Source: Cyclobacteriaceae bacterium | GTDB taxonomy: Bacteria > Bacteroidota > Bacteroidia > Cytophagales > Cyclobacteriaceae | NCBI GenBank assembly: GCA_046541235.1 | Contig: JBKHDR010000011.1 | Span: 518 to 64,517, forward strand | Length of the DNA stretch: 64,000 nt | Reading direction: 5' to 3' | Shown: positions 9,442 to 21,921 of the stretch, piece after piece | Position numbering within the stretch: the first letter of the stretch is position 1 | Layout: each line of letters starts with the position of its first letter | Notes under the pieces: generated by a model | The model's input: only the letters and a program-made list of their open reading frames with translations | What the model was told of the DNA's origin: nothing | Databases searched by the model: none | Made by a program: the position numbers and the translations under genes

Positions 9442-10155
9442 TCAGATGCGGTCACGTATCGGCAGGTTGACAAAGAAATTGGTACCCTGTCCTTCTTCAC
9501 TTTCATACCAGATACTTCCCTGGTGTCTTTCGACAATCTTTTTAGCCAGATAGAGGCCCAGGCCGCTGGATTCCTCGCCTTCGGTACCCCGGCGGGTAGC
9601 TTTGCTGAACTTGCTGAATATGTAAGGCCTGAGTCTTTTTGGGATACCAATGCCCTGATCCGATACAGAAATATTGATCACATTGGCATACTTAACTAGT
9701 TTCACAATCACCTCGGTGCCCGGAATTGAATACTTGACGGCGTTGGAAAGCAGTTGCTCAATCACCCGGCGGATGGCTACTTCGTCCATGTAGATGGTAG
9801 CTTCTTCTTCCAGGTCCTCAAAAATCACCTTTACGTCCTTAGACTTGCTGAGGCTGGCAGGATACCTTTCAGCAACTTGCTTCACAATGCGGTTGATGAT
9901 GACCGGGCGAGGCTGCTGCAGGGGATCTTCTTCAAGACAGCGATCTACCGAGATAAGGTTATGAATGATGCTCTTGATAGTGGTACAATCGCGTTCTATG
10001 GTTTCAAAGAATTTACGATTCTCATCATCTATCTCATTCTCAAAGTTCTTGAAAAGTGTATAATTGCAGGATCTTATCCTGGCGAGCATACCTTTCAGAT
10101 CATGCCCTATACGGGCAAGGATCTCTTCATTGGTCTCAGCACTTTTGATCATCAC
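9442..10155 (-). CDS. Minimal histidine kinase (HisKA + HATPase only, no sensor or TM)
   Basis: H-box IGHDLKG at residues ~16-22; N box QLLSNAVKY; DQGIGI; IFSKF; SGLGLY. Confidence 0.85.
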   Translation of the reverse strand: MMIKSAETNEEILARIGHDLKGMLARIRSCNYTLFKNFENEIDDENRKFFETIERDCTTIKSIIHNLISVDRCLEEDPLQQPRPVIINRIVKQVAERYPASLSKSKDVKVIFEDLEEEATIYMDEVAIRRVIEQLLSNAVKYSIPGTEVIVKLVKYANVINISVSDQGIGIPKRLRPYIFSKFSKATRRGTEGEESSGLGLYLAKKIVERHQGSIWYESEEGQGTNFFVNLPIRDRI

Positions 10156-10422: not shown

Positions 10423-11592
10423 TCAGAAGGCTTCTCCAATGAAGAAATATACGCCACTACCCTCTTCGGTAAATGCCACATCCAGGCGGGTAAAAATATC
10501 CTTGTTCTTGAAAAGCAGGAAGCGCACTCCTGCCCCGCCGGCGGGCTTGAGCGAAGCCAGGTTCAGGTCGCCAATGGTGGGCGCTACGCCACCCATCCCC
10601 ATGAACACCGCTCCTCCCCAGCGGCGGCTGAAGGGAAAAGGCAGCCAGCGATATTCCACCTGAGTCGCCAGCAGATTGCGGTCGCGGTAGCGTCCCAGAT
10701 AGTAGCCACGCATCAGGCTTTCCCCACCCATCAGCGCCAGCTGATTGAAAGGCACATCACCACTTACCGACTGCCCGTAAAGCTGCACAGCAAGCAACTG
10801 TTGCTTGGCCGTAGGCACATACCAGCGGCTATCCAGGATAAAACTGCTGAAGCTGAGAGCATGCTGGTTGAGCAGACCATAGTTAAGATAGGCGAGCTCT
10901 GCAAACCAGCCCTTCCGTACATTGAGAACATTGTGACGGTCATCATGTAGCAGACCCACCCCCAGGCCCAGGTTGGAGGACCCATCTGCACCAAGCGGCA
11001 GCGCTGCAGGTGGACCTTCCCAGTTAAAAGTAACATTACTCAGACGCTGCCAGTCTACTTCCAGTCCCAGGTAAAAATCGCCGAAAATACGACGCAGTGC
11101 CCGCTCACGCAGGATCAGGTAGCGCGCATCTACGACCGCAAGGGCCTCGTCAGGGCTTTCTTCACCTATACCATGATAATACAGTGGAAACGACTGCCCA
11201 CGAAGCCTGCCCAGGAAGAACCACTGGTCCTGGTCAGAGTAGAGCGCATGGTCCAGCCAGATGCCATACTGGCTTTCCAGTGTAAAAAAGGTAAAAGCAT
11301 TGATCTCACTCAGGCGGTTGGCAGTATCCCTGTTTGCATGGTAAAGATAAAGCGAACTCAGACCAATTTCCCAGCTGGTTTCGGGAGAATAGGCCAGGGT
11401 GGGATAATTCAGAAAGCGAGGCTGCTCTGCCGAAACTGTATCTGCCAGGAAACTTCCGACTTTATCCTGTGTCCACTTTACCAACTGGGCCTGTACCTGC
11501 ATTGTAGAAAGTAAAACAAGTGCTACTATAAAGGTATACCGGCTCAACCATTTGAAACAGGTATGACGAAAGCTACTGACTAAGATATACAT
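10423..11592 (-). CDS. Omp85/BamA-TamA family outer-membrane beta-barrel without POTRA domains
   Basis: L6-loop motif LMRGYYLGRYRD; amphipathic strands; C-terminal YFFIGEAF. Confidence 0.8.
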   Translation of the reverse strand: MYILVSSFRHTCFKWLSRYTFIVALVLLSTMQVQAQLVKWTQDKVGSFLADTVSAEQPRFLNYPTLAYSPETSWEIGLSSLYLYHANRDTANRLSEINAFTFFTLESQYGIWLDHALYSDQDQWFFLGRLRGQSFPLYYHGIGEESPDEALAVVDARYLILRERALRRIFGDFYLGLEVDWQRLSNVTFNWEGPPAALPLGADGSSNLGLGVGLLHDDRHNVLNVRKGWFAELAYLNYGLLNQHALSFSSFILDSRWYVPTAKQQLLAVQLYGQSVSGDVPFNQLALMGGESLMRGYYLGRYRDRNLLATQVEYRWLPFPFSRRWGGAVFMGMGGVAPTIGDLNLASLKPAGGAGVRFLLFKNKDIFTRLDVAFTEEGSGVYFFIGEAF

Positions 11593-12108: not shown

Positions 12109-12498
12109 ATGCTTATGCAAGTGAAGGATTGTCAGAAAGCCAATGAAATTATCAGCTTCCACTTAGAAGATGGAATTCTTCATGGAACTTATCTTGTCCA
12201 GAAAATCAACCTGGGAGCAGCTATCAATGCTACTTCATTCAAAAAAGAAATTACAATGGGTAAACCTTACCCGGCACTGGCTGACATTTCCAGGGTGAAA
12301 GATATGAGTAAGGAAGCCCGGGCTTTTTTTTCTCAGGATGCGGGTGAGGATCTGCTGGCACTGGCCGTCATTGTCAACAATCCGGTCACACGGATGCTGA
12401 CCAACTTCTTTCTTCAATTCAACAAGCCGGTTTACCCTTTTCGCATTTTTACTGACCGGAAAGAGGCCATCTGCTGGTTGAAAAAATACCAACATTAG
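12109..12498 (+). CDS. STAS/SEC14-like (SpoIIAA-like) small protein, copy 1
   Basis: 129 aa alpha/beta pattern; DISRVKDMSKEAR; C-terminal PFRIFTDRKEAICWL typical of SpoIIAA-like proteins. Confidence 0.75.
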   Translation: MLMQVKDCQKANEIISFHLEDGILHGTYLVQKINLGAAINATSFKKEITMGKPYPALADISRVKDMSKEARAFFSQDAGEDLLALAVIVNNPVTRMLTNFFLQFNKPVYPFRIFTDRKEAICWLKKYQH

Positions 12499-12509
12499 TA
12501 CATTCTCAG

Positions 12510-12887
12510 ATGCAGGATAAGATATTAGACAATAAGTATTACAGAGCTGAAATGCAGGATGGCATCATGATCGTGCAATATAAACCCGGCCTGCATATCA
12601 CGCTGAAGGAGGCCAGGGAAATTGTACAGGCGAGGCTTGATCATTTTGGGAACATTTCATATCCGGTAATTTTTAAAAGCTCCAGGGTAAAAAGTATAGA
12701 CAAAGCAGCACGCAGCTACCTCTTCAAGGAAGGGCATATCAACCTCAAAGCTATTGCGCTAATAGAGCAAACCAAGGTAGAAAAAGTGATGTTGAGCATC
12801 ATGCTGAATTTTGACCGCCCTCCCATACCCTGCCGTGCCTTCGACAATGAAATGGATGCCATAGCATGGTTACAAGATTTTAAATAA
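12510..12887 (+). CDS. STAS/SEC14-like (SpoIIAA-like) small protein, copy 2
   Basis: Paralog of the preceding ORF: shares DGI, YP, SRVK, KxAR and PxRxFxxxxxAIxWL. Confidence 0.75.
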   Translation: MQDKILDNKYYRAEMQDGIMIVQYKPGLHITLKEAREIVQARLDHFGNISYPVIFKSSRVKSIDKAARSYLFKEGHINLKAIALIEQTKVEKVMLSIMLNFDRPPIPCRAFDNEMDAIAWLQDFK

Positions 12888-12889
12888 GT

Positions 12890-14113
12890 ATGGACAAAAA
12901 CGAGAAGCGTTTGGAAGATATCAACCAACTGATACTGGAGATCGCCGGAGGAAAACTGGGCCGTAAGCTGGAGATATCTTCTGCTTTTGATGAAATTGAT
13001 GCGATTGCTTCCGGTATCAATATGCTGGGAGAAGAGTTGCAGGCGAGTATGATCGACCGCAACTACTTCAATTGCGTGCTGAAAAGCATCGTGGATATTC
13101 TCATCATTTTTGACCAGAACTATCAGATTATCCAGATTAATGACAAGGCTCTTGAATCCCTGGGCTATCCTGAACAAGACCTGCTAGGTAAATCTATTGG
13201 CTCATTAGTGCCTGACGAAGAAAAAGAAAAATTTTTTAATCTGATTGCTGCTGTCCAGGAACAGGAAGCACTCTATAATGCGGAAGTCAATTTTTGTACT
13301 GCCTTGGATGAAAAACTTCCCCTGGCTATTTCTGTCTCCAAGCTACAGACCAAAAGTCAAATGCAATCGGGGTATGTACTCCTGGCTAAGGATCTGAAAC
13401 AGTTTTACATTCTGTCAGATGCCCTGAAGAAGAAGAATAAGGAGCTTGAGACTTTTGTCTATAAAGTGTCTCATGACCTGAAAGGGCCGGTAGCTTCGCT
13501 GCTCGGCCTGCTGGAGTTAAGTGAAAGAGAGGATAATGACTTGGCAACTATTCGTGCCTATATGGGGATGATGAAGAGCAGCCTGCAGCGGCTTGATAAA
13601 AGCATCGTTTCTTTTCTTAATTTCACTCTGGCTACCCGTACTGATATCGAACCACAGAAAGTCATGCTCAAGCAGGAAGTATACGAAGTGATAAAGGTAC
13701 TATGGGCTTTTCCCAACAGATCCTATGTATCTATCAATAACCTGATCCCCGATGAGTTGAGCCTGTATACAATTCCTGAGCTGCTTCGTTCGGTACTGCA
13801 GAATTTTATTGAAAACGCCATCAAGTACAGAAGCAGGTTCAGGCCTTCCAGTGTGGATATCAGCGCTGAAACACACCCTCAGAAAACCATCATCCGCATC
13901 AGGGACAATGGCATCGGCATGAGCCCATATATTCGTGAACGAGCTTTTGATATGTACTTCAGGGGGCATAGCGAAGCGCCCGGCAGCGGCCTTGGCCTGT
14001 ACATTACCAAAGCCAGCGTAGAGAAGCTGGGAGGAGAGATTTATCTGTGCAGCGAAGAAGGTAAGGGAACCGAAGTAAAAATTACGCTTCCCAATCTCAA
14101 CCGCTATGTATAA
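12890..14113 (+). CDS. Soluble HAMP-PAS-HisKA-HATPase histidine kinase
   Basis: N-terminal HAMP-like IAGGKL...DEIDAIASGINMLGEEL; PAS INDKALESLGYPEQDLLGKSI; H-box VSHDLKGP; NFIENAIKY; DNGIGM; GSGLGL. No TM stretch. Confidence 0.88.
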   Translation: MDKNEKRLEDINQLILEIAGGKLGRKLEISSAFDEIDAIASGINMLGEELQASMIDRNYFNCVLKSIVDILIIFDQNYQIIQINDKALESLGYPEQDLLGKSIGSLVPDEEKEKFFNLIAAVQEQEALYNAEVNFCTALDEKLPLAISVSKLQTKSQMQSGYVLLAKDLKQFYILSDALKKKNKELETFVYKVSHDLKGPVASLLGLLELSEREDNDLATIRAYMGMMKSSLQRLDKSIVSFLNFTLATRTDIEPQKVMLKQEVYEVIKVLWAFPNRSYVSINNLIPDELSLYTIPELLRSVLQNFIENAIKYRSRFRPSSVDISAETHPQKTIIRIRDNGIGMSPYIRERAFDMYFRGHSEAPGSGLGLYITKASVEKLGGEIYLCSEEGKGTEVKITLPNLNRYV

Positions 14114-14162: not shown

Positions 14163-16589
14163 TTAGTACTCCTTTTCCAGTAGTTTATTGCCCTGCAAGC
14201 CTTCCAGCGCTTCAAAACTGAAATTGGCATCGGTCTGTATAAAGCCTACTTTGGGAAACTGCCGGGCACCCAGCTTCTTCTTTTCCATATTGGCCGTCAC
14301 ACCCAGGTGAATCAGTTCTTTCCCCAGTGCATTGGCTCGCATTACTGCCCGGTAAAGCAGTTGCTTGTACACTTTGTGTTCGGCGTATTCATAATCAAGC
14401 CCCACCAGTACTCCCTGATAAGTACGAGGACTGATATGGGTCATGGCTACCCCGATCAGCGGTTTTTCACCGGTAGCCGCATAAAGGCAGATAAACTCCC
14501 ATTCTGATGACTCATTCATCTGGCTAAAAAGCTTATAAGGATAAGCGGTAATATTAAGCGCCAGGTTTACTTTTTGTACGTTCAGGTAAAGCATGTAGGC
14601 CGTGTGCAGTTCTTCATCCGTCAGTTGTGCTTTGTGCTCAATTACAAAGAGATGTTTGCGGTTGAGGACATCCTGGCGCATGTGTTTCCTGGAGCGGGGC
14701 GTGAGCGTAGCCTGAAAAGTTTCTTCATTTTCAAAATGAGTCAGTTCAAGTACTGAAGCTTCGGGGAAATCCACTTTCATAAAACCCTGCTCATGGAAGA
14801 AATCGTTGAGTTCGGTATCATCAGCATGCAGGTCTCGGATGATCATAGTCTTGGCATCCATCTGCTTTTTTAGTTTTTCCATTTGCAGGCACAGCATCCG
14901 CAAAGCTTCTTTATACATGTGATGTGAGCGGTCCACGTAGAGATGATCGCCGTCCGTGATCTGTGAGCCCATACAAAGCACCCTGCTCATCATAAAGTAG
15001 GGGTCTGTCATTCGTATCGCTTCTATAGGCGCAGATACTTCCGGTTTAGCCAGCATGTCATCCTTCCAGAGCCCTGCCGTGAAGAAGGTTGCCAGCACCG
15101 GGTGCTGCTTTTTGTCCCTGATAATGAGATACACAAAATTCCAGTTGTGTTCGGGCAGCAGATTGTCAGCAAATGCGCTTTCCATCAGCCGCAGGTTACT
15201 GTGATTGAAGATACCCTTATCGGCAAAAAGATAATCCCAGTCCTGGGAATTGATATCACTGATGCGATGATAGACTGATACATCAAGCTGTTCCGATACT
15301 TCTGCTGCATCGTGCGGTTCTTCCACCGGAGGCAGTTTAAAGGCCGCTCTCACGCGGTTGAGGGTTAGTCCTTCTTCCCTCAAACTCTCGGGATAATGAT
15401 GAACCATGGCATCAACCAAAGCTTTGATCTCTTCTTTCTGGTTATGCCTTGAAATGGTAAACCTGATGCCGGAATTACGTACAGGTACGGCGGGGAAGAT
15501 GGCTACATTGATATAAAAGCCCTCGTTCATGAGCCTGCGCGCAAAATTGTAAGCAGCGGCTGGCAGGGCTGATCCTATAAAATGGACAGGGCACACGTTT
15601 TCCTGCACCAGGGGCAGGGAAGTCTGCCTGATAAGTTCGTTACAGTAATTCACTTTCTCTCTGAGATCAGCCTGTAGCTCGTAGATTTCGTCAGAAAGGT
15701 GAATCCTGGCTGATGCCAGAGCAGCTGCTACGCTGGCAGGCTCCAGCTGGGCCGAGAAAGTCTGGGGCCCACCAAAGATGCGGTAGGATTCATAGAGCGC
15801 CTGATCACCAAAAACCACCACGCTGCCGCTGGCTCCGAAGCTTTTGCTAAGCGTACCGACCAGCACCATTTGCTCCGGCAACTCACCCAGCTGGCTCATC
15901 ACATAACCTGTACCGTGTTTGCCCGCCCAGCTCATGCCGTGTACATCATCTACATAGAGATGAAGCTGAGGATATTTTTTCTTCAGTTCCAACAGTTCTC
16001 CCATGGGTACTGTATCTCCGTACATAGAATATACTCCATCGGCTGCATACCAGATATGACGGTACTGGTTTCGGTATTTCTTAAGCAAATCCTCCAGCAT
16101 GTTCATATCGTTGTGTCGCAGTAGCTGCACCGGAATGCCGCGAGGCTTGAGCAGCTGCGCTGCATTCTGTACACTGGCGTGCACCTGCTGGTCCAGGATC
16201 AGCATATCTTCATCTCTTACCACAGAAGGGATGACACCTAAGTGGGCCAGGGTACTGTTCTTGGTGATTACCAGCGGGCGCTCGTACATTTGCAGAAGTG
16301 CCTCCTCCAGCTCTTTGTAAATCACAAAGGAAACATAGGTTTTTGACAACGGAAACTGGGTACCATAGCGCATAATAGCATCACAGGCCGCCTGCTTGAT
16401 TCTTATATCCTGCTCGAGACCCAGGTAGCCGGTGGTACCGAAATGAAAAAGCTTCTTGCCTTTGATCTGGATATAGCGACCGTCAAAATGATCCCCTTCG
16501 GTGTAGAGATGAAGCAACCCCTCTTTCTTGGCATGAAGAATCAGGTCGCCGATAGTATCCAACAAATTGTTGTGTCTGGATTTAGCCAT
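14163..16589 (-). CDS. Alpha-oxoamine synthase (BioF/Spt/CqsA-like, PLP) fused to a C-terminal FemAB/GNAT-like domain
   Basis: GYLGL, DQQVHASV, DGVYSMYGD, DDVHG, GTLSKSFG (PLP Lys), FPAVP..GIRFTIS in residues ~1-400. The following ~400 aa include GLDY and HLGVTANMEKKKLGA, typical of tandem GNAT/FemAB folds. Start placed at ATG 16589 (MAKSRHNN). Confidence 0.85.
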   Translation of the reverse strand: MAKSRHNNLLDTIGDLILHAKKEGLLHLYTEGDHFDGRYIQIKGKKLFHFGTTGYLGLEQDIRIKQAACDAIMRYGTQFPLSKTYVSFVIYKELEEALLQMYERPLVITKNSTLAHLGVIPSVVRDEDMLILDQQVHASVQNAAQLLKPRGIPVQLLRHNDMNMLEDLLKKYRNQYRHIWYAADGVYSMYGDTVPMGELLELKKKYPQLHLYVDDVHGMSWAGKHGTGYVMSQLGELPEQMVLVGTLSKSFGASGSVVVFGDQALYESYRIFGGPQTFSAQLEPASVAAALASARIHLSDEIYELQADLREKVNYCNELIRQTSLPLVQENVCPVHFIGSALPAAAYNFARRLMNEGFYINVAIFPAVPVRNSGIRFTISRHNQKEEIKALVDAMVHHYPESLREEGLTLNRVRAAFKLPPVEEPHDAAEVSEQLDVSVYHRISDINSQDWDYLFADKGIFNHSNLRLMESAFADNLLPEHNWNFVYLIIRDKKQHPVLATFFTAGLWKDDMLAKPEVSAPIEAIRMTDPYFMMSRVLCMGSQITDGDHLYVDRSHHMYKEALRMLCLQMEKLKKQMDAKTMIIRDLHADDTELNDFFHEQGFMKVDFPEASVLELTHFENEETFQATLTPRSRKHMRQDVLNRKHLFVIEHKAQLTDEELHTAYMLYLNVQKVNLALNITAYPYKLFSQMNESSEWEFICLYAATGEKPLIGVAMTHISPRTYQGVLVGLDYEYAEHKVYKQLLYRAVMRANALGKELIHLGVTANMEKKKLGARQFPKVGFIQTDANFSFEALEGLQGNKLLEKEY

Positions 16590-17032
16590 TAACTTAATGC
16601 ATTGATTTTGAGAATATAAAATTGAGGAACAAATGCCACACCTCTGAACTGAAATAAGGATAAAGCGGATCTTGTAAGAAAAAACCAGGAATAAGTGTGA
16701 ATTACAAAGCAAAAATACAGGAAATAAGAGATACCACTGATACTGACTAAAAAATCAATTTTATGTTTACCAAATACGTCCGTCATACTACCGACTGAAG
16801 GGGCAACGGCATGTAAGGTCTTCCTGATTTGAGAATAAAAAAGTTAAAAAAGCTCTTTTTTTCTGTTTTATTTCATGAAGCATTATCTGATGTATCTACA
16901 TTTATTTACGTAATTTCAGCATCGCCTTGATCAAGCTTGATACTTTTTTTCCTCATTTTCAGTAAATTGGCAAAGGCAACATTATACAGGAAAAAGCATA
17001 TTTATACTTTCGGACGATGAACCTTATTTTTT

Positions 17033-17593
17033 ATGAGTAAAGATACCTTTGCCTTTAAATACTTCAGGGTACTACCGGCGGCACTACCCGCTTATTTTAT
17101 ACCCGAACCCCATCCTTTTTACTCTACCCGACTTACTATGGAAAAGCTGGCGGAGCATTGCTGGCAGATATATTACGCGCGTCATTACGAAAGTTTGGCG
17201 TTTGGAGCCCCGGAAATCGTATCAGGGACTCTCAGGGTGGGACGCCATCCTGAAGAGTGTGAAAAGGAACTGCTCAAGGTCCTAAATCATTTTCCAATGC
17301 TTACCGAAGGTTTTTATCATAAGTTGAGGACAGGAATTCTTACGTTTAGGATAAAAGAAAAAGACTGGTTACAGAGTGAACTGCTGCACCGTGATTATCA
17401 TGACATAGAAATTGCTGCTTTGTACCAGCTGGGGGTGAGCAATGAGTTGCTTCGCTGGATGTACCGTGAAAGGAAATTTATACTGCATGAACTGAAAGAC
17501 CAGCCTCTTCTGGCTGAGGAAGTGAGGATCAGGGAAATGGAATTTACTATTTCTGATCAAGTGCTCAGGAAATTTCGCAAGAGCCAGAAATAG
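17033..17593 (+). CDS. Hypothetical cytoplasmic protein, divergent from the AOS-GNAT gene
   Basis: 186-aa ORF with protein-like composition filling an otherwise empty gap; no recognised motif. Confidence 0.65.
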   Translation: MSKDTFAFKYFRVLPAALPAYFIPEPHPFYSTRLTMEKLAEHCWQIYYARHYESLAFGAPEIVSGTLRVGRHPEECEKELLKVLNHFPMLTEGFYHKLRTGILTFRIKEKDWLQSELLHRDYHDIEIAALYQLGVSNELLRWMYRERKFILHELKDQPLLAEEVRIREMEFTISDQVLRKFRKSQK

Positions 17594-18001
17594 TGCCCAT
17601 CTTCCAGTTCCCCAATGAGATTCCGTTTTTGGCACTCTACCAGGCTAAACCGTTTCACGGCGAACCACGGTAGATTCTTGTCCATCAGACTTTCCGAACC
17701 CTCCGCTGCCTTGGACAATGGGAATTACCCGACCCCTGATGTTTGCCGCACCTGGGATTCACGTCCAGAATACTTAGAATGAAATTTTCAATGTTACGAA
17801 CCAGGCTACCTAAAGGACAAGATCATATCACTGTAAAGTAGCATAACATAAAAGGCCACAAATTTTTGTCTATAATAAATCTTAGTCAACATTCTACTTC
17901 TGCGGAAACCTGGCAGCACACAAAGGAAGCAAAAAAAAACCGGCTCATGAGGCCGGTCTCTCATCAATAAGCAGTCAATTAAAAAAAGCCGCTTGTGTAA
18001 A

Positions 18002-18364
18002 TTATCCCTGAGAATTGTCGTAATAAAAACGCTCATGCACAATCTGATCGTTCTCCCAGTGCTGCACGGCTACCTGTTCCATATTGACGCGCGAACCACC
18101 CTGAAAGGTGACATCCATGGCCACTTCTATAAAAACCACACCTTTGCTTTCATCAGAAGCGATGCTTTTTACTTCCATGCCGTGAAACTCCTGCACGCTG
18201 TTCAGAAACTGCACTTCGTACTCTCTGCAACTGGCTTTCCCCTCACGTGTACCGCGGGGCTCGGTCATGACCACATTTTCGGCATAATACTTATCAAAGG
18301 CATCCAGCAGTTGCCCCTGTCCAATCATGTTGTAAAGATCCTGGGCTTTTTCTTTAAGTGTCAT
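18002..18364 (-). CDS. SnoaL-like / NTF2-family protein
   Basis: AFDKYYAENVVMTEP; VAVQHWENDQIVHERFYY. Confidence 0.85.
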   Translation of the reverse strand: MTLKEKAQDLYNMIGQGQLLDAFDKYYAENVVMTEPRGTREGKASCREYEVQFLNSVQEFHGMEVKSIASDESKGVVFIEVAMDVTFQGGSRVNMEQVAVQHWENDQIVHERFYYDNSQG

Positions 18365-18574
18365 AATATATAAATTTTATATGTATATACATTAAATTAG
18401 CTTGCAGGAGTTTTGTTTGACAAATTGATGCTTTTTTGACCAAAGCTACTTTGCAGGATCAGGCTTGTATCATTATCAGACTATTAGCTATATTTTACCT
18501 CAAAATTTGTTTGGTTACCAGAAGCCGCCTTAATTAAGGGGCCACCTGACTTCTTACTGGCCAGAGCGCCTGGT

Positions 18575-19206: not shown

Positions 19207-19917
19207 TTAAAAGCTCATCAACTCCTTGAGCCTGATCGTTTGTCTTCTGGAAACGTCTACCTTGGTGCCGTCTTTTAAAAAAACACGTAAAGTGCCGCTG
19301 AACCAGGGTTCTACCCTGTCTACCCATTTCAGGTTGATCATCTGCTGACGATTGGCCCGAAAGAACACCTCCGGATCAAGTCGCGACTCCAGGTAATTCA
19401 GCGTCTTGGGAATCATGGGTCGCTGCTCCTGAAAATAGATCCGTGTGTAGTTGTCCTCTACCTCAAAGAGCCGAATATCTCTCAGATATACAAACCAGCA
19501 TTTTTCACCATCTTTGACAAATACCTGGCTCTCTTCGTGCATCACTTTTTTACTTTGCCTGGCTTTTATTCTTTCTCTTACTTTTTGCAGTGCCTCTTGC
19601 AGGCGAGCGGGAGTTACCGGCTTTTGCAGGTAATCAAGTGCATTGTACTCAAAAGCTTTGATGGCATAGGCATCATAGGCGGTCACAAACACCACCTCGG
19701 GCGCTTCGTCCAGTTGTTCCAGCATTTCAAATCCGTTCATACCAGGCATCTGTATGTCCAGAAATACCAGGTCGGGAGTTGACCTCCTGATCAGGTCAAG
19801 TCCCTGACGGGCGTTTTCTGCCTCGCCTACAATTTTAATATCATCATGGCTGCTCAGCAGGTAGCTAAGTTCGTTACGTGCCAGGCGGGTATCGTCAATC
19901 AGCAGGGTTTTGATCAT
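19207..19917 (-). CDS. LytTR-family response regulator
   Basis: IDD, FLDIQMPGMNGF (phospho-Asp), VTAYD, DYLQKP; LytTR FFRANRQQMINL and VSRRQ. Confidence 0.95.
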   Translation of the reverse strand: MIKTLLIDDTRLARNELSYLLSSHDDIKIVGEAENARQGLDLIRRSTPDLVFLDIQMPGMNGFEMLEQLDEAPEVVFVTAYDAYAIKAFEYNALDYLQKPVTPARLQEALQKVRERIKARQSKKVMHEESQVFVKDGEKCWFVYLRDIRLFEVEDNYTRIYFQEQRPMIPKTLNYLESRLDPEVFFRANRQQMINLKWVDRVEPWFSGTLRVFLKDGTKVDVSRRQTIRLKELMSF

Positions 19918-20962
19918 AGATTGGCAAAATTAAATGCGCTACTACTCTGTCTGAATTTTGGGTGAGAGAAAAAGCAGGTTTTTCACCATAAAGTATCCTT
20001 ACTCTTTCCAGCACATTGCGCAGTCCGGTGCCCGAAAATTCATTGTTGCGCAAATGCCCGGTGTTTTCTACCATCAGGTGAAGACCGTCTTTTATCTGTG
20101 TCCTGAGCAGGATCATCCCACCGCCTTCCAGTTGAGATATACCGTGTTTGATAGCATTTTCCGCCATCACCTGTAGGCTCATAGGCGGTATCAGCAGCTT
20201 TTCAGTCTGAGGATCTATATCAAAACAATAGGTCAACCTTTTTTCATAATGAATACTTTCCAGTTGAAGGTAGTTTTTTACTACTTCCACTTCCTCAATG
20301 AGCATTACCTGCGACTGCTGCGAAAACCTGATGGAGTAACGCAACAGGTCAGAAAGATTGGAAATAGCGTCGCGGGAAGCATGAGGGTTCATCAATACCA
20401 GCGCCCGGATGTTATTCAGTGCATTGAACAGAAAATGGGGATTGATCTGTGCCTTGAGGGCAATCAGTTCGGCCTCCTTAATGGCAGCTTCAGCTTTTAC
20501 CGCTTCCACCTTGGCATTACGTGCATTCTCAAAATTATAGTATCCAAAGTAAAAACCCGACCAGACTATCATGACAAGAAATACATTAGCCAGGTAAAAT
20601 GGAAACTCCGACCAGTCTATCGGACGTACGGTTTGCCAATTGAGCACAGTAAGCATGACCAGGTGAATTATCACCTGCGCTACGAAGGCGGCCACCAGAG
20701 ACCCGGCCAGCAGGTAGAGACTCAGCCGCAGGAGAGGGAGCGCAAACCAGTTCCTTTTTTTAATGACTAACCTGAACCAATGCGCACAGAGCAGGCAGCT
20801 GGCACCTATGGTCAACTGCAAAAGAATAAGTTTAAAAGGAAGGGGAGACTCATTGAAATATAATATGGAAAAGAGTAGGGAACCGGTAAAGGTCCCCCAC
20901 CCTATGATTTGCAACAGCCAGTATAAACTGTTCCTGCTTATTTTCAGCTCATTCACCATCAT
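19895..20962 (-). CDS. LytS/YehU-family membrane sensor histidine kinase
   Basis: About 4 N-terminal TM segments; LKAQINPHFLFNALNNI; ENAIKHG. Confidence 0.93.
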   Translation of the reverse strand: MMVNELKISRNSLYWLLQIIGWGTFTGSLLFSILYFNESPLPFKLILLQLTIGASCLLCAHWFRLVIKKRNWFALPLLRLSLYLLAGSLVAAFVAQVIIHLVMLTVLNWQTVRPIDWSEFPFYLANVFLVMIVWSGFYFGYYNFENARNAKVEAVKAEAAIKEAELIALKAQINPHFLFNALNNIRALVLMNPHASRDAISNLSDLLRYSIRFSQQSQVMLIEEVEVVKNYLQLESIHYEKRLTYCFDIDPQTEKLLIPPMSLQVMAENAIKHGISQLEGGGMILLRTQIKDGLHLMVENTGHLRNNEFSGTGLRNVLERVRILYGEKPAFSLTQNSDRVVAHLILPIYDQNPAD

Positions 20963-21009: not shown

Positions 21010-21921
21010 CTAATTTTGCGATACGTTGGTAGCCGGCAGTCCAAAAAAGTCCTGTAGTTGTGCAAAGAAGAAGGGCTTGTCATCCCACATGATAAAGTGC
21101 CTGCCCCGGTCGGTCATTTCCAGGCGGTAGCCATTAAGCTGATGGTACTGAGCATGGTAAATCTGGGAAGTAGACTCCCGGGTAGCGCCATAGTCCTGGT
21201 AGGCTACCCAGGCACCCAGTACCAGCACAGGCGACTGTATGGCAGCTATATCATCGCGCAGGTCGGTGGTGTAAAGGTTGTACATGGCCTGGGCCACTGT
21301 GCGGGGATCACTCTTTAATCCCCACTGTATGGCGGTGTCGATATCCTCCTCGGCGGTGATCATCATTTTCAGCATCTGGCGGTTGTACTGACTCTGGCTG
21401 CTGCCCTGCTGCAGGCTCATCTGCTTCATATTTTCCGCCATAGGTTTGGCCTTTTCCTCGGTCATGCTGGGGTCCATCATGCCTCCCAGAAAGGGAAGTC
21501 CGTCCACGACCAGGATTTTGCCGAAGCTGTCAGGTTGGCGGCTGGCCAGGTCCAGGGACAGAAAGCCGCCCAGGCTGTGGCCTATCAGGTGCACTTTCGA
21601 CAGGTTTTGCTCATCTATGTAGCGGAAAATTTCATCCCGGATCAGGCCCAGGTAATCATCAGGCACCGAGTCAAGCGCGGTGTGTCCGGCAAAGCCCGGG
21701 AGCGTAAGCACATGGCACTGATAGTGCTTTTGCAGCATGGCTACTGTTTCCTGCCATACCTCTCCCGGGCAGGTCATGCCGGGGATCAGGATGACTGCTT
21801 CACCCTGCCCGGATACTTCGCTTTTAAAAGAATACGTTTGAGCTTTGACCAGATTTGTTGCGAGTAGGGTCACGATCGTGGTCAGCAAAAGGACAGCTTT
21901 AAAGTTTCTTACCGTTTTCAT
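21010..21921 (-). CDS. Secreted alpha/beta hydrolase
   Basis: Signal peptide; oxyanion LIPG; nucleophile elbow GHSLGG; catalytic His region RHFIMWD. Confidence 0.9.
   Translation of the reverse strand: MKTVRNFKAVLLLTTIVTLLATNLVKAQTYSFKSEVSGQGEAVILIPGMTCPGEVWQETVAMLQKHYQCHVLTLPGFAGHTALDSVPDDYLGLIRDEIFRYIDEQNLSKVHLIGHSLGGFLSLDLASRQPDSFGKILVVDGLPFLGGMMDPSMTEEKAKPMAENMKQMSLQQGSSQSQYNRQMLKMMITAEEDIDTAIQWGLKSDPRTVAQAMYNLYTTDLRDDIAAIQSPVLVLGAWVAYQDYGATRESTSQIYHAQYHQLNGYRLEMTDRGRHFIMWDDKPFFFAQLQDFFGLPATNVSQN

What the first reader, a model, noticed from the sequence alone, without database searches (positions are those of the whole stretch)
14163..16589. Alpha-oxoamine synthase fused to a FemAB/GNAT-like transferase
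Seen: all AOS catalytic motifs are intact (HAS, DGVYSM, DDVHG, TLSK), but the usual SNDYLGL block reads FGTTGYLGL. A ~400-aa GNAT/FemAB-like domain follows. Established: AOS enzymes condense an amino acid with an acyl-CoA/ACP (BioF, Spt, CqsA, the sulfonolipid enzyme CapB), and the bacterial ceramide synthase bCerS is a GNAT-type N-acyltransferase acting on the Spt product. Inference: this single polypeptide could do condensation plus N-acylation (or tRNA-dependent aminoacylation), yielding an unknown ceramide-like or N-acyl-aminoketone product. It is unlikely to be BioF, as there are no bio genes nearby and it is about twice the usual length.
Basis: partly seen in the sequence, partly recalled or inferred. 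Interest (0 to 1): 0.75.

Follow-up and report, generated by a model that had tools for sequence, protein, structure and literature searches.

The report
Aminoketone synthase–acyltransferase fusion with sensor genes
This is a real, uncharacterised two-domain enzyme of Bacteroidota that probably joins an amino acid to a fatty acyl chain and then caps the new amine, and because its gene is inherited together with a small STAS-like protein and a cytoplasmic sensor it is a good candidate for a lipid-like signal maker, not a biotin or routine sphingolipid enzyme.

Summary
The gene lies on the minus strand (window 14163-16589, 808 aa). Residues about 20-400 are an intact PLP alpha-oxoamine synthase (AOS). 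Residues about 436-808 fold as a FemX-like tandem GNAT (AlphaFold pLDDT 92.5).

It is not BioF, Kbl, Spt, CqsA or the sulfonolipid enzyme. All curated models score far below cut-off, and the genome has separate Kbl, CFAT and BioF-like genes. The C-terminal domain shows no sequence kinship with the bacterial ceramide synthase homologue YghO.

The fusion is an accessory gene: about 3% of sampled Bacteroidota genomes and 489 species. Distant full-length relatives carry extra N-terminal FAAL-ACP-ACP or acyl-CoA-binding domains, which points to fatty-acyl substrates.

In 77 of 80 related loci it sits beside a STAS-fold DUF7793 gene. In about 73 it also sits beside a HAMP-PAS sensor whose output is a histidine kinase (Cytophagales, and this window) or an AraC domain (Flavobacteriales).

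Best reading: a one-enzyme synthase of an N-acylated long-chain aminoketone used as a regulatory or signal lipid. Product, donor and receptor are all inferred.

No paper on this family was found.

The parts
14163..16589 (-). Gene for the 808-aa AOS / tandem-GNAT fusion protein (P0002); stop codon at 14163-14165
   Evidence: ORF and translation. The start is fixed by the invariant M1-A2-K3 of relatives. More than 1730 full-length relatives were found.
15390..16532 (-). Alpha-oxoamine synthase (PLP, fold-type I) domain, residues about 20-400
   Evidence: PF00155 E 6.5e-25. NCBIfam best hit is the PRK07505 subfamily at 276.8 bits, below its cut-off of 342; all equivalogs fall far below cut-off. 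The best PDB match is Alb29 8XHA at 122 bits, followed by Sphingobacterium SPT.
15843..15845 (-). Codon of Lys249 (TLSK), the predicted PLP Schiff-base lysine
   Evidence: It aligns with the SK lysine of Alb29 and of S. multivorum SPT and is invariant in 14 relatives.
14166..15284 (-). FemX-like tandem-GNAT (PF13480/PF04339) domain, residues about 436-808
   Evidence: PF13480. AlphaFold2 pLDDT 92.5. Foldseek matches FemX, Sbb17/Sba18, 2wpx, FemA and MprF. There are 27 invariant columns in 73 sequences.
12109..12498 (+). DUF7793 gene 1 (STAS/SpoIIAA-like, 129 aa), first gene of the convergent sensor operon
   Evidence: PF25056 E 2.3e-31. A relative lies next to the fusion in 77 of 80 loci.
12510..12887 (+). 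DUF7793 gene 2 (125 aa)
   Evidence: PF25056 E 1.1e-32. AlphaFold2 pLDDT 84.6, with Foldseek matches to STAS/SpoIIAA folds 2q3l, 4xs5 and 1th8.
12890..14113 (+). Soluble HAMP-like / PAS / HisKA / HATPase_c histidine kinase (407 aa), ending 49 bp from the fusion gene's 3' end
   Evidence: Pfam. Its N-terminal HAMP-PAS part is shared with the AraC-output proteins that flank the fusion in Flavobacteriales (31% identity over 120 aa, E 2e-14).

Best explanation
The gene encodes a two-step enzyme.

Step 1 (inferred from intact catalytic residues). The N-terminal PLP domain condenses an amino acid with a fatty acyl thioester (acyl-CoA or acyl-ACP). This releases CO2 and gives a long-chain alpha-aminoketone.

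Step 2 (inferred from the fold, the conservation and the fusion). The C-terminal FemX-like tandem GNAT acylates the free amine. The donor is most likely a second acyl-CoA or acyl-ACP. The product would be a stable N-acyl aminoketone, a 3-oxo-ceramide-like molecule, which cannot dimerise to pyrazines.

Role (inferred from synteny). Across two orders the gene is inherited together with a STAS-like DUF7793 protein and a soluble HAMP-PAS sensor, whose output domain is swapped between a histidine kinase and an AraC DNA-binding domain. The product is therefore most likely a regulatory or signalling lipid made by a single synthase and read, or feedback-controlled, by that sensor pair. This parallels CqsA/CqsS and LgsGA3/TetR.

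In this window the sensor operon (12109-14113, plus strand) is convergent with the synthase gene.
For: Shown by tools:
- The AOS motifs are intact and conserved, including His137, Asp214/His217, Lys249 and Arg376.
- The C-terminal half is a confident tandem-GNAT fold with 27 invariant columns.
- The AOS domain belongs to a separate clade together with about 425-aa stand-alone Bacteroidota AOS proteins (38-45% identity). A long, well-supported branch separates this clade from Kbl, CFAT and Spt (22-27% identity).
- P0164 has FAAL + 2 ACP + AOS + GNAT and is 38% identical end to end. P0272 has ACBP + AOS + GNAT and is 34% identical. Both indicate fatty-acyl substrates, and the two carrier domains fit two acyl transfers.
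- In 80 related loci, DUF7793 lies within 3 kb in 77. A HAMP-PAS protein lies within 4 kb in about 73, with AraC output in 49 and kinase output in 24.
- In a 401-genome phylum sample, all 11 genomes with the fusion (12 loci) have DUF7793 directly adjacent.
- All 8 genomes of the window's genus carry both the fusion and a tandem DUF7793 pair. They are linked in 3 genomes and lie more than 500 kb apart in 3 others.
- Stand-alone relatives of the AOS domain sit next to regulators: a multi-TM histidine kinase in L101 and a histidine kinase (N-terminal part not examined) in L105, and a divergent MerR in L104.
- AOS enzymes are proven signal synthases elsewhere: CqsA, and B. fragilis LgsGA3 with TetR (PMC13080023).
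Against: - No product, substrate or ligand binding has been measured.
- DUF7793 plus a HAMP-like kinase also occurs without the fusion (10 of 21 DUF7793-positive genomes). The pair is therefore a generic sensor module that may simply regulate the enzyme.
- In the closest named relative, Catalinimonas niigatensis, the fusion has no adjacent sensor.
- A two-tailed lipid is a poor diffusible signal.
- The best structural matches of the C-domain use aminoacyl-tRNA, not acyl-CoA.
- No shared operator was found between the two promoter regions within the genus.
- P0164 and P0272 come from an unnamed library, so their organisms are unknown.
Confidence: 0.45

Rival explanations
1. The chemistry is the same (N-acyl long-chain aminoketone, 3-oxo-ceramide-like), but the product is a conditional structural or protective membrane lipid. 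The STAS/HAMP-PAS genes merely switch its synthesis on in response to an unrelated cue.
For: - FAAL-ACP and ACBP variants indicate long acyl chains.
- In Caulobacter, N-acylation of the Spt product before reduction is the proposed ceramide route (PMC11324152, PMC9386255).
- The DUF7793-kinase pair exists without the fusion, so it may sense something else.
Against: - The distribution is patchy (12 of 401 genomes).
- No reductase, head-group or export genes are conserved nearby.
- The sensor domain is co-inherited across an output-domain swap.
- The genome already has a CFAT for its sulfonolipids.
Confidence: 0.25
2. The C-terminal domain uses an aminoacyl-tRNA, as FemX and Sbb17 do. It adds an amino acid to the aminoketone, giving an aminoacyl-aminoketone that cyclises to a dihydropyrazinone or pyrazinone-type small signal.
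For: - The top structural matches are aminoacyl-tRNA-dependent transferases: FemX, Sbb17/Sba18, FemA and MprF.
- The domain matches PF04339 FemAB_like.
- There is no canonical GNAT Q/RxxGxG/A CoA loop after the beta-4 strand (direct reading).
- From my own knowledge: pyrazinones are known bacterial signals, and a PAS-domain receptor (VqmA) reads one.
Against: - Fold alone does not reveal the donor, and acetyl-CoA-binding tandem GNATs (2wpx, VipF) score almost as well.
- Relatives with two fused ACPs or an ACBP fit acyl donors better.
Confidence: 0.15
3. The C-terminal domain is not catalytic. It would be an acyl-CoA or ACP docking, oligomerisation or regulatory domain, and the enzyme releases a free aminoketone as CqsA does.
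For: - The donor-binding motif is not recognisable.
- Stand-alone relatives of the AOS domain exist and work without it.
Against: - There are 27 invariant and 41 nearly invariant columns in the C-domain across 35-54% identical sequences, including charged residues (E46, D87, E99, R102, R161, D162, E345, K346, K348).
- The fusion is kept in 489 species.
Confidence: 0.07
4. It is a housekeeping BioF, Kbl, Spt or cysteate acyltransferase that happens to carry an extra domain.
For: General AOS homology.
Against: - All curated equivalog models fall far below their cut-offs.
- The genome has a true Kbl (708 bits), a CFAT (591 bits to PDB 28eh) and a BioF-like gene elsewhere.
- The fusion is present in only about 3% of sampled genomes.
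- M. tuberculosis BioF2, which has a similar domain pair, does not complement a bioF mutant (PMC12910592).
Confidence: 0.03

Closest known systems
CqsA/CqsS (Vibrio) and LqsA/LqsS (Legionella) alpha-hydroxyketone signalling
   Same: An AOS-family enzyme acts as a one-gene signal synthase, and its gene lies next to a sensor histidine kinase. Two stand-alone relatives of this AOS clade are followed by a histidine kinase; the one examined (L101) is multi-TM.
   Different: - The CqsA model scores only 65.6 bits against a cut-off of 428.
- This enzyme has an extra tandem-GNAT domain.
- The sensor is soluble (HAMP-PAS) and paired with a STAS-like protein.
- The sensor's output is a kinase or an AraC domain.
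LgsGA3/TetR of Bacteroides fragilis (PMC13080023)
   Same: An AOS in Bacteroidota is encoded divergently from a cytoplasmic regulator and makes a released small-molecule ligand.
   Different: Lgs is a stand-alone AOS paired with a TetR regulator.
Spt + bCerS (Caulobacter CCNA_01212/CC_1154; E. coli BL21 YghO) ceramide route
   Same: The logic matches: an AOS makes a long-chain aminoketone that is N-acylated before any reduction. In E. coli BL21 a FAAL and an ACP feed the Spt enzyme, and variant P0164 has the same parts fused.
   Different: - The C-domain shows no profile similarity to YghO (probability 0.35%).
- The AOS domain is only 26% identical to BL21 Spt.
- There is no CerR-type reductase nearby.
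- The gene is accessory, not core.
Mycobacterium tuberculosis BioF2 (Rv0032)
   Same: An AOS is fused to an extra domain, its function is unknown, and it does not complement a bioF mutant (PMC12910592). From my own knowledge, PF13480 is called the 'BioF2-like acetyltransferase domain' in InterPro.
   Different: The domain order is reversed (the extra domain is N-terminal) and the phylum is different. It was not compared directly here.
Alb29 (Streptomyces albogriseolus, PDB 8XHA)
   Same: It is the closest solved AOS (122 bits) and shares the L-S-(K/R) loop. It condenses L-glutamate with acyl-CoAs (PMC11906848).
   Different: It is a stand-alone enzyme of a natural-product cluster. At 122 bits over about 340 aligned residues the match is distant. 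Substrate transfer from it would be speculative.
FemX / Sbb17-Sba18 aminoacyl-tRNA-dependent transferases
   Same: These are the best structural matches of the C-domain (E 1e-13 to 1e-10, TM up to 0.74 on the target). Sbb17/Sba18 act on a small-molecule amine.
   Different: Sequence identity is 11-13%. The donor of this domain is unknown.

Membership tests
Alpha-oxoamine synthase (PLP fold-type I, PF00155 AOS group) | Schiff-base Lys, PLP-stacking His, the Asp/His pair, the carboxylate-binding Arg and the glycine-rich N-terminal YLGL block | tested here: met
   K249, H137, D214/H217, R376 and FGTTGYLGL align with Alb29 and SPT and are invariant. PF00155 E 6.5e-25.
BioF (8-amino-7-oxononanoate synthase) | Score above the TIGR00858 equivalog cut-off; bio gene context | tested here: not met
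   180.7 bits against a cut-off of 426.45. No bio genes nearby.
Serine palmitoyltransferase (bacterial Spt) | Score above the NF047599/NF047600/NF047603 cut-offs | tested here: not met
   170, 163 and 122 bits against cut-offs of 500, 640 and 670. 26% identity to E. coli BL21 Spt, from which it is separated by a long branch.
Kbl (glycine C-acetyltransferase) | Score above the TIGR01822/NF005394 cut-offs | tested here: not met
   122 and 150 bits against cut-offs of 493 and 460. The genome has a true Kbl at 708 bits.
CqsA/LqsA autoinducer synthase | Score above the NF005526 cut-off | tested here: not met
   65.6 bits against a cut-off of 428.
Cysteate-C-fatty acyltransferase (CapB/SulA/CFAT) | Close similarity to the solved CFATs (28eh, 7u7h) | tested here: not met
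   94 bits to 28eh. The paralogue on contig C21 scores 591 and 564 bits.
FemAB-like / BioF2-like tandem GNAT (PF13480, PF04339) | Pfam match above cut-off and a two-lobed GNAT fold | tested here: met
   PF13480 26.6 bits against a cut-off of 22. 62 of 73 relatives match PF13480 and 46 of 73 match PF04339. Fold matches to FemX, FemA and 2wpx.
FemAB-like / BioF2-like tandem GNAT (PF13480, PF04339) | Identity of the acyl or aminoacyl donor (acyl-CoA/ACP versus aminoacyl-tRNA) | not testable with these tools
   The fold matches include both donor types. Fused ACPs and ACBP in relatives favour acyl donors.
Bacterial ceramide synthase bCerS (CCNA_01212 / YghO family) | Sequence or profile homology to a family member | tested here: not met
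   hhalign of A2 against E. coli BL21 YghO gave probability 0.35%. Only one template sequence was used, so this is a weak test. YghO has no Pfam match.
Synthase-receptor signalling pair (Cqs/Lqs/Lgs type) | The synthase gene is genetically linked to a sensor or regulator across lineages | tested here: met
   77 of 80 loci have DUF7793 and about 73 of 80 have a HAMP-PAS kinase or AraC protein. All 12 loci in the phylum sample show the linkage.
Synthase-receptor signalling pair (Cqs/Lqs/Lgs type) | The product is released and is the ligand of the linked sensor | not testable with these tools
   This needs metabolite and binding or reporter experiments.

The most novel reading that the evidence does not exclude
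The fusion, DUF7793 (STAS-like) and the HAMP-PAS kinase or AraC protein together form an undescribed lipid-signal system of Bacteroidota. A single enzyme would make an N-capped long-chain aminoketone, and a soluble STAS plus HAMP-PAS receptor would read it. In Flavobacteriaceae the module travels with an RteC/HTH_17 gene block that can be present in several diverged copies per genome. That pattern would be expected if each copy carried its own private signal channel.
Probability: 0.35. Interest if true: 0.8.

Novelty: new variant of a known kind. Interest (0 to 1): 0.62.

Why it matters
Few chemical signalling systems are known in Bacteroidota. The N-acyl-cyclolysine/LuxR system and LgsGA3/TetR were described only in 2025-2026.

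A single, easily expressed enzyme found in hundreds of marine and soil Cytophagales and Flavobacteriales species, with its probable sensor encoded next door, gives a directly testable route to three things:
- a new class of aminoketone lipids;
- a function for the PF13480/PF04339 'FemAB-like' domain when it is fused to an AOS, which also bears on the unexplained M. tuberculosis BioF2;
- a function for DUF7793.

If the product is only a conditional membrane lipid, the finding is still a new one-polypeptide ceramide-like pathway. It would then be of narrower interest.

Tried and rejected
- Plus-strand reading of the stated coordinates: not a gene.
- Sequence search of the C-domain profile against the PDB: nothing found. 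NCBIfam gave no C-domain match either.
- bCerS kinship through E. coli BL21 YghO: rejected at the sequence level.
- Conserved operator in the DUF7793/fusion divergent spacer: the recurrent GAAAACTGG lies within about 10 bp of the DUF7793 start, so it is probably 5' end or RBS context, not an operator.
- Shared motif between the fusion and DUF7793-operon promoters in five genomes of the genus: none found by k-mer counting. This is a crude test.
- Sigma-70 promoter and terminator scan: at or below the shuffled expectation, and Bacteroidota promoters are not covered by it.
- Mobile-element idea for the Flavobacteriaceae block. RteC and HTH_17 are present and Aequorivita antarctica has three diverged copies. 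However, 4 of 5 genomes have no CTnDOT-type TraJ and there is no consistently nearby tyrosine integrase. Mobility is not established.
- No tRNA genes in the window and no composition anomaly around the gene.
- Literature searches for the fusion, DUF7793, PF13480, PF04339 and COG3146 found no characterisation. The Nature 2025 ACL paper is not held.
Full report
**1. The object**

The coordinates are right, but the gene is on the minus strand. The plus-strand reading is full of stops. The minus strand gives an 808-aa protein from ATG 16589 to the stop codon at 14163-14165. The mechanical ORF extends to a TTG at 16712, but all relatives begin M-A-K, which fixes the start.

**2. The N-terminal domain**

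Pfam finds PF00155 at residues 50-393. NCBIfam's best model is the unnamed subfamily PRK07505 at 276.8 bits, below its cut-off of 342. Every named equivalog is far below its cut-off:

| Model | Score (bits) | Cut-off (bits) |
|---|---|---|
| BioF | 181 | 426 |
| Spt (three models) | 170, 163, 122 | 500, 640, 670 |
| Kbl (two models) | 150, 122 | 460, 493 |
| ALAS | 109 | 339 |
| CqsA | 66 | 428 |

The closest solved structure is Alb29 of Streptomyces albogriseolus (8XHA, 122 bits), an L-glutamate plus acyl-CoA enzyme according to PMC11906848. Sphingobacterium SPT follows. The alignments place K249, H137, D214/H217 and R376 on the catalytic residues.

The genome (4.9 Mb, 100% complete by marker genes) has three other AOS genes:
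- a true Kbl (708 bits);
- a cysteate-C-fatty acyltransferase (591 bits to PDB 28eh);
- a divergent BioF-like gene.

In a maximum-likelihood tree, three groups form one clade: the fusion AOS domains, about 425-aa stand-alone Bacteroidota AOS proteins (38-45% identity), and the FAAL or ACBP variants described in section 5. A long branch (99/98 support) separates this clade from Kbl, CFAT and E. coli BL21 Spt (22-27% identity). Long-branch caveats apply.

**3. The C-terminal domain**

PF13480 matches at 26.6 bits (cut-off 22). Of 73 relatives' C-terminal halves, 62 match PF13480 and 46 match PF04339 FemAB_like. A profile search of the PDB by sequence finds nothing.

An AlphaFold2 model of residues 425-808, built on a 73-sequence alignment, is confident (pLDDT 92.5, pTM 0.89). 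Foldseek returns these matches over 340-405 columns:
- Weissella FemX (1.7e-13);
- the aminoacyl-tRNA-dependent peptide synthases Sbb17/Sba18 (TM 0.73 on the target);
- the clavulanate tandem GNAT 2wpx;
- FemA, VipF and MprF/aaPGS.

The domain has 27 invariant and 41 nearly invariant columns at 35-54% identity, which argues for a working active site. The fold does not reveal whether the donor is acyl-CoA/ACP or aminoacyl-tRNA.

**4. Test of the bCerS analogy**

PMC9386255 names E. coli BL21 yghO as the homologue of the Caulobacter N-acyltransferase CC_1154. I fetched yghO, which lies next to a FAAL, an epimerase, an ACP and spt. Comparing it with the C-domain profile gave hhalign probability 0.35%, and YghO has no Pfam match. 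The C-domain is thus not a detectable member of the bCerS family. The resemblance is one of pathway logic only: N-acylation of the keto intermediate (PMC11324152).

**5. Distribution and domain variants**

- More than 1730 full-length relatives were found, all named ones from Bacteroidota (Cytophagales, Flavobacteriales). NCBI labels some of them 'bifunctional aminotransferase class I/II-fold PLP-dependent enzyme/GNAT family N-acetyltransferase'.
- 489 of the species representatives hold the fusion.
- In an even sample of 401 Bacteroidota genomes, 12 gave a match and 11 of these carry the two-domain fusion (one copy truncated at 636 aa); the twelfth is a stand-alone AOS. One genus shows 5 of 15.
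- In the window's genus it is in 7 of 7 relatives, one of them fragmented. In five other genera of the family it was not found among those searched.
- An exhaustive profile search with the C-domain gave 2505 cluster representatives at E <= 0.001 and 359 at E <= 1e-30. The best 150 are mostly about 800-aa fusions.

Two variants are informative:
- P0164 (1429 aa) has AMP-binding (FAAL-like) + two PP-binding + AOS + PF13480 domains.
- P0272 (966 aa) has an acyl-CoA-binding protein (ACBP) + AOS + PF13480.

Both align with P0002 from end to end, at 38% and 34% identity. This is domain-fusion evidence that the family handles fatty acyl thioesters. Two carrier domains fit two acyl transfers.

**6. 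Gene neighbourhood**

I called and clustered ORFs in 80 related loci plus the window and rescored them with HMMs built here.

- DUF7793 lies within 3 kb of the fusion in 77 of 80 loci. In 75 of these it is the divergently transcribed upstream neighbour.
- A protein with a shared HAMP-like + PAS N-terminus lies within 4 kb in about 73 loci.
- Its output is an AraC HTH in 49 loci (Flavobacteriales) and HisKA/HATPase in 24 (Cytophagales).
- In the window and in L005 the DUF7793-DUF7793-kinase operon is convergent with the fusion. In the window it spans 12109-14113 on the plus strand, with a 49-bp gap.

In the phylum sample, every one of the 12 fusion loci has DUF7793 directly adjacent. Within the genus, all 8 genomes hold both the fusion and a tandem DUF7793 pair. 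They are linked in 3 genomes, more than 500 kb apart in 3, and on different contigs in 2.

DUF7793 models as a STAS/SpoIIAA fold (pLDDT 84.6; matches 2q3l, 4xs5 and 1th8).

A caveat applies. DUF7793 also occurs in 10 sampled genomes that lack the fusion. There it is often followed by a kinase with the same HAMP-like N-terminus (5 of 14 contexts examined). Other contexts are unrelated. The STAS-sensor pair is therefore a generic module, and the fusion is tied to one branch of it.

**7. Stand-alone relatives**

The nearest non-fused AOS is G087, 437 aa, scoring 256 bits on PRK07505. It is followed on the same strand by a histidine kinase with about five N-terminal transmembrane helices, the CqsA/CqsS layout.

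Of three further stand-alone relatives examined:
- one is again followed by a histidine kinase;
- one has a divergent MerR regulator;
- one has no regulator nearby.

The sample is small, but it is consistent with a clade of regulator-linked synthases.

**8. Flavobacteriaceae context**

On the regulator side lie an unknown 360-510-aa protein, a small secreted Cys-rich DUF6520 protein, an S9 peptidase and SusC/D-like genes. On the synthase side lie RteC, an HTH_17 protein, two unknown or AAA-like proteins and a 372-aa protein.

Aequorivita antarctica has three copies. Identities between copies are:

| Component | Identity between copies |
|---|---|
| Fusion | 79-84% |
| DUF7793 | 60-82% |
| AraC sensor | 53-73% |
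| RteC block | 81-96% |

No CTnDOT-type TraJ was found in 4 of 5 genomes with the block, and there is no consistent integrase nearby. Mobility is therefore suggested but not shown.

**9. Mechanism**

Shown:
- two intact, conserved domains of the stated folds;
- a separate AOS clade;
- fatty-acyl accessory domains in relatives;
- conserved linkage to a STAS plus HAMP-PAS pair with swapped outputs.

Inferred:
- The order of the reactions. An AOS needs a free alpha-amine, so the GNAT must act after it.
- An acyl donor rather than an aminoacyl donor.
- A long-chain product.
- A signalling role.

| Reading | Weight |
|---|---|
| N-acyl long-chain aminoketone used as a regulatory or signal lipid | 0.45 |
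| Same chemistry, but a conditionally made structural lipid | 0.25 |
| tRNA-dependent aminoacylation leading to a pyrazinone-type signal | 0.15 |
| Non-catalytic C-domain | 0.07 |
| Housekeeping AOS | 0.03 |

**10. Known or new**

No paper on this fusion, on DUF7793 or on PF13480/PF04339 function in this setting was found. The nearest described systems are:
- CqsA/CqsS and LqsA/LqsS;
- B. fragilis LgsGA3/TetR (PMC13080023);
- Spt plus bCerS;
- the uncharacterised M. tuberculosis BioF2 (PMC12910592).

Databases already label the protein generically as bifunctional, so the architecture itself is not new. The function, the product and the sensor linkage are undescribed.

Earlier notes of this scan reached similar readings on other genomes (e1-3595204, e1-2114200, e1-3595205, e1-5123969) and on this stretch (e1-5275733). 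They are leads, not independent evidence.

**11. Limits**

- Only 80 of the 489 loci were examined.
- The organisms of P0164 and P0272 are unknown.
- The bCerS test used a single template.
- No operator was found.

Noticed in passing
window 9442-10155 (-) and 10423-11592 (-): A 237-aa HisKA + HATPase_c protein with no sensor domain lies next to an Omp85-superfamily protein, just upstream of the DUF7793 operon. The arrangement is not conserved in related loci.
   Followed up: partly
window 19207-20962 (-): A LytTR response regulator (236 aa) overlaps a His_kinase (LytS-type, 355 aa) gene, forming a separate two-component pair. An alpha/beta hydrolase lies at 21010-21921.
   Followed up: no
window 17993-18373 (+) / 18002-18364 (-): Two ORFs cover almost the same bases on opposite strands. 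Only the minus-strand one has a family match (SnoaL-like, E 1e-12), so it is probably the real gene.
   Followed up: partly
window 17033-17593 (+): A 186-aa ORF runs divergently from the fusion gene. It has no Pfam match and is not conserved next to the fusion elsewhere.
   Followed up: partly
own genome G000:C10:26332-26661 (-) (L087): A third DUF7793 gene lies away from the fusion. It is followed by a 97-aa ORF and a PolyA_pol/HD (CCA-adding-like) gene, with no kinase beside it.
   Followed up: partly
L028, L030, L082 (Aequorivita antarctica) and other Flavobacteriaceae loci: A conserved block surrounds the fusion. It holds SusC/D-like genes, an S9 peptidase, a small secreted Cys-rich DUF6520 protein, an unknown 360-510-aa protein, and RteC / HTH_17 / AAA-like / 372-aa genes. 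One genome has three diverged copies. DUF6520 could be a bacteriocin-like target of the AraC sensor.
   Followed up: partly
G383 (phylum sample): One genome carries 11 DUF7793 genes, several of them directly upstream of HAMP-like/PAS or HWE-type histidine kinases. This suggests that DUF7793 is a general partner of soluble kinases.
   Followed up: partly
L101:4380-7302 (-) and L105:5001-7978 (+): A stand-alone AOS of the same clade is followed by a histidine kinase; in L101 its N-terminal about 200 residues read as multi-TM (L105's was not examined). This is a CqsA/CqsS-like gene pair in Bacteroidota.
   Followed up: partly
L086 (E. coli BL21(DE3) 2989282-2994885): yghO, the bCerS homologue, has no Pfam match at all. 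It lies divergent from a FAAL-epimerase-ACP-spt operon.
   Followed up: partly
L107:13483-14412: An Xre-like-HTH/MbcA-ParS antitoxin and a RES-domain toxin form a pair a few kb from the fusion in Tunicatimonas pelagia.
   Followed up: no
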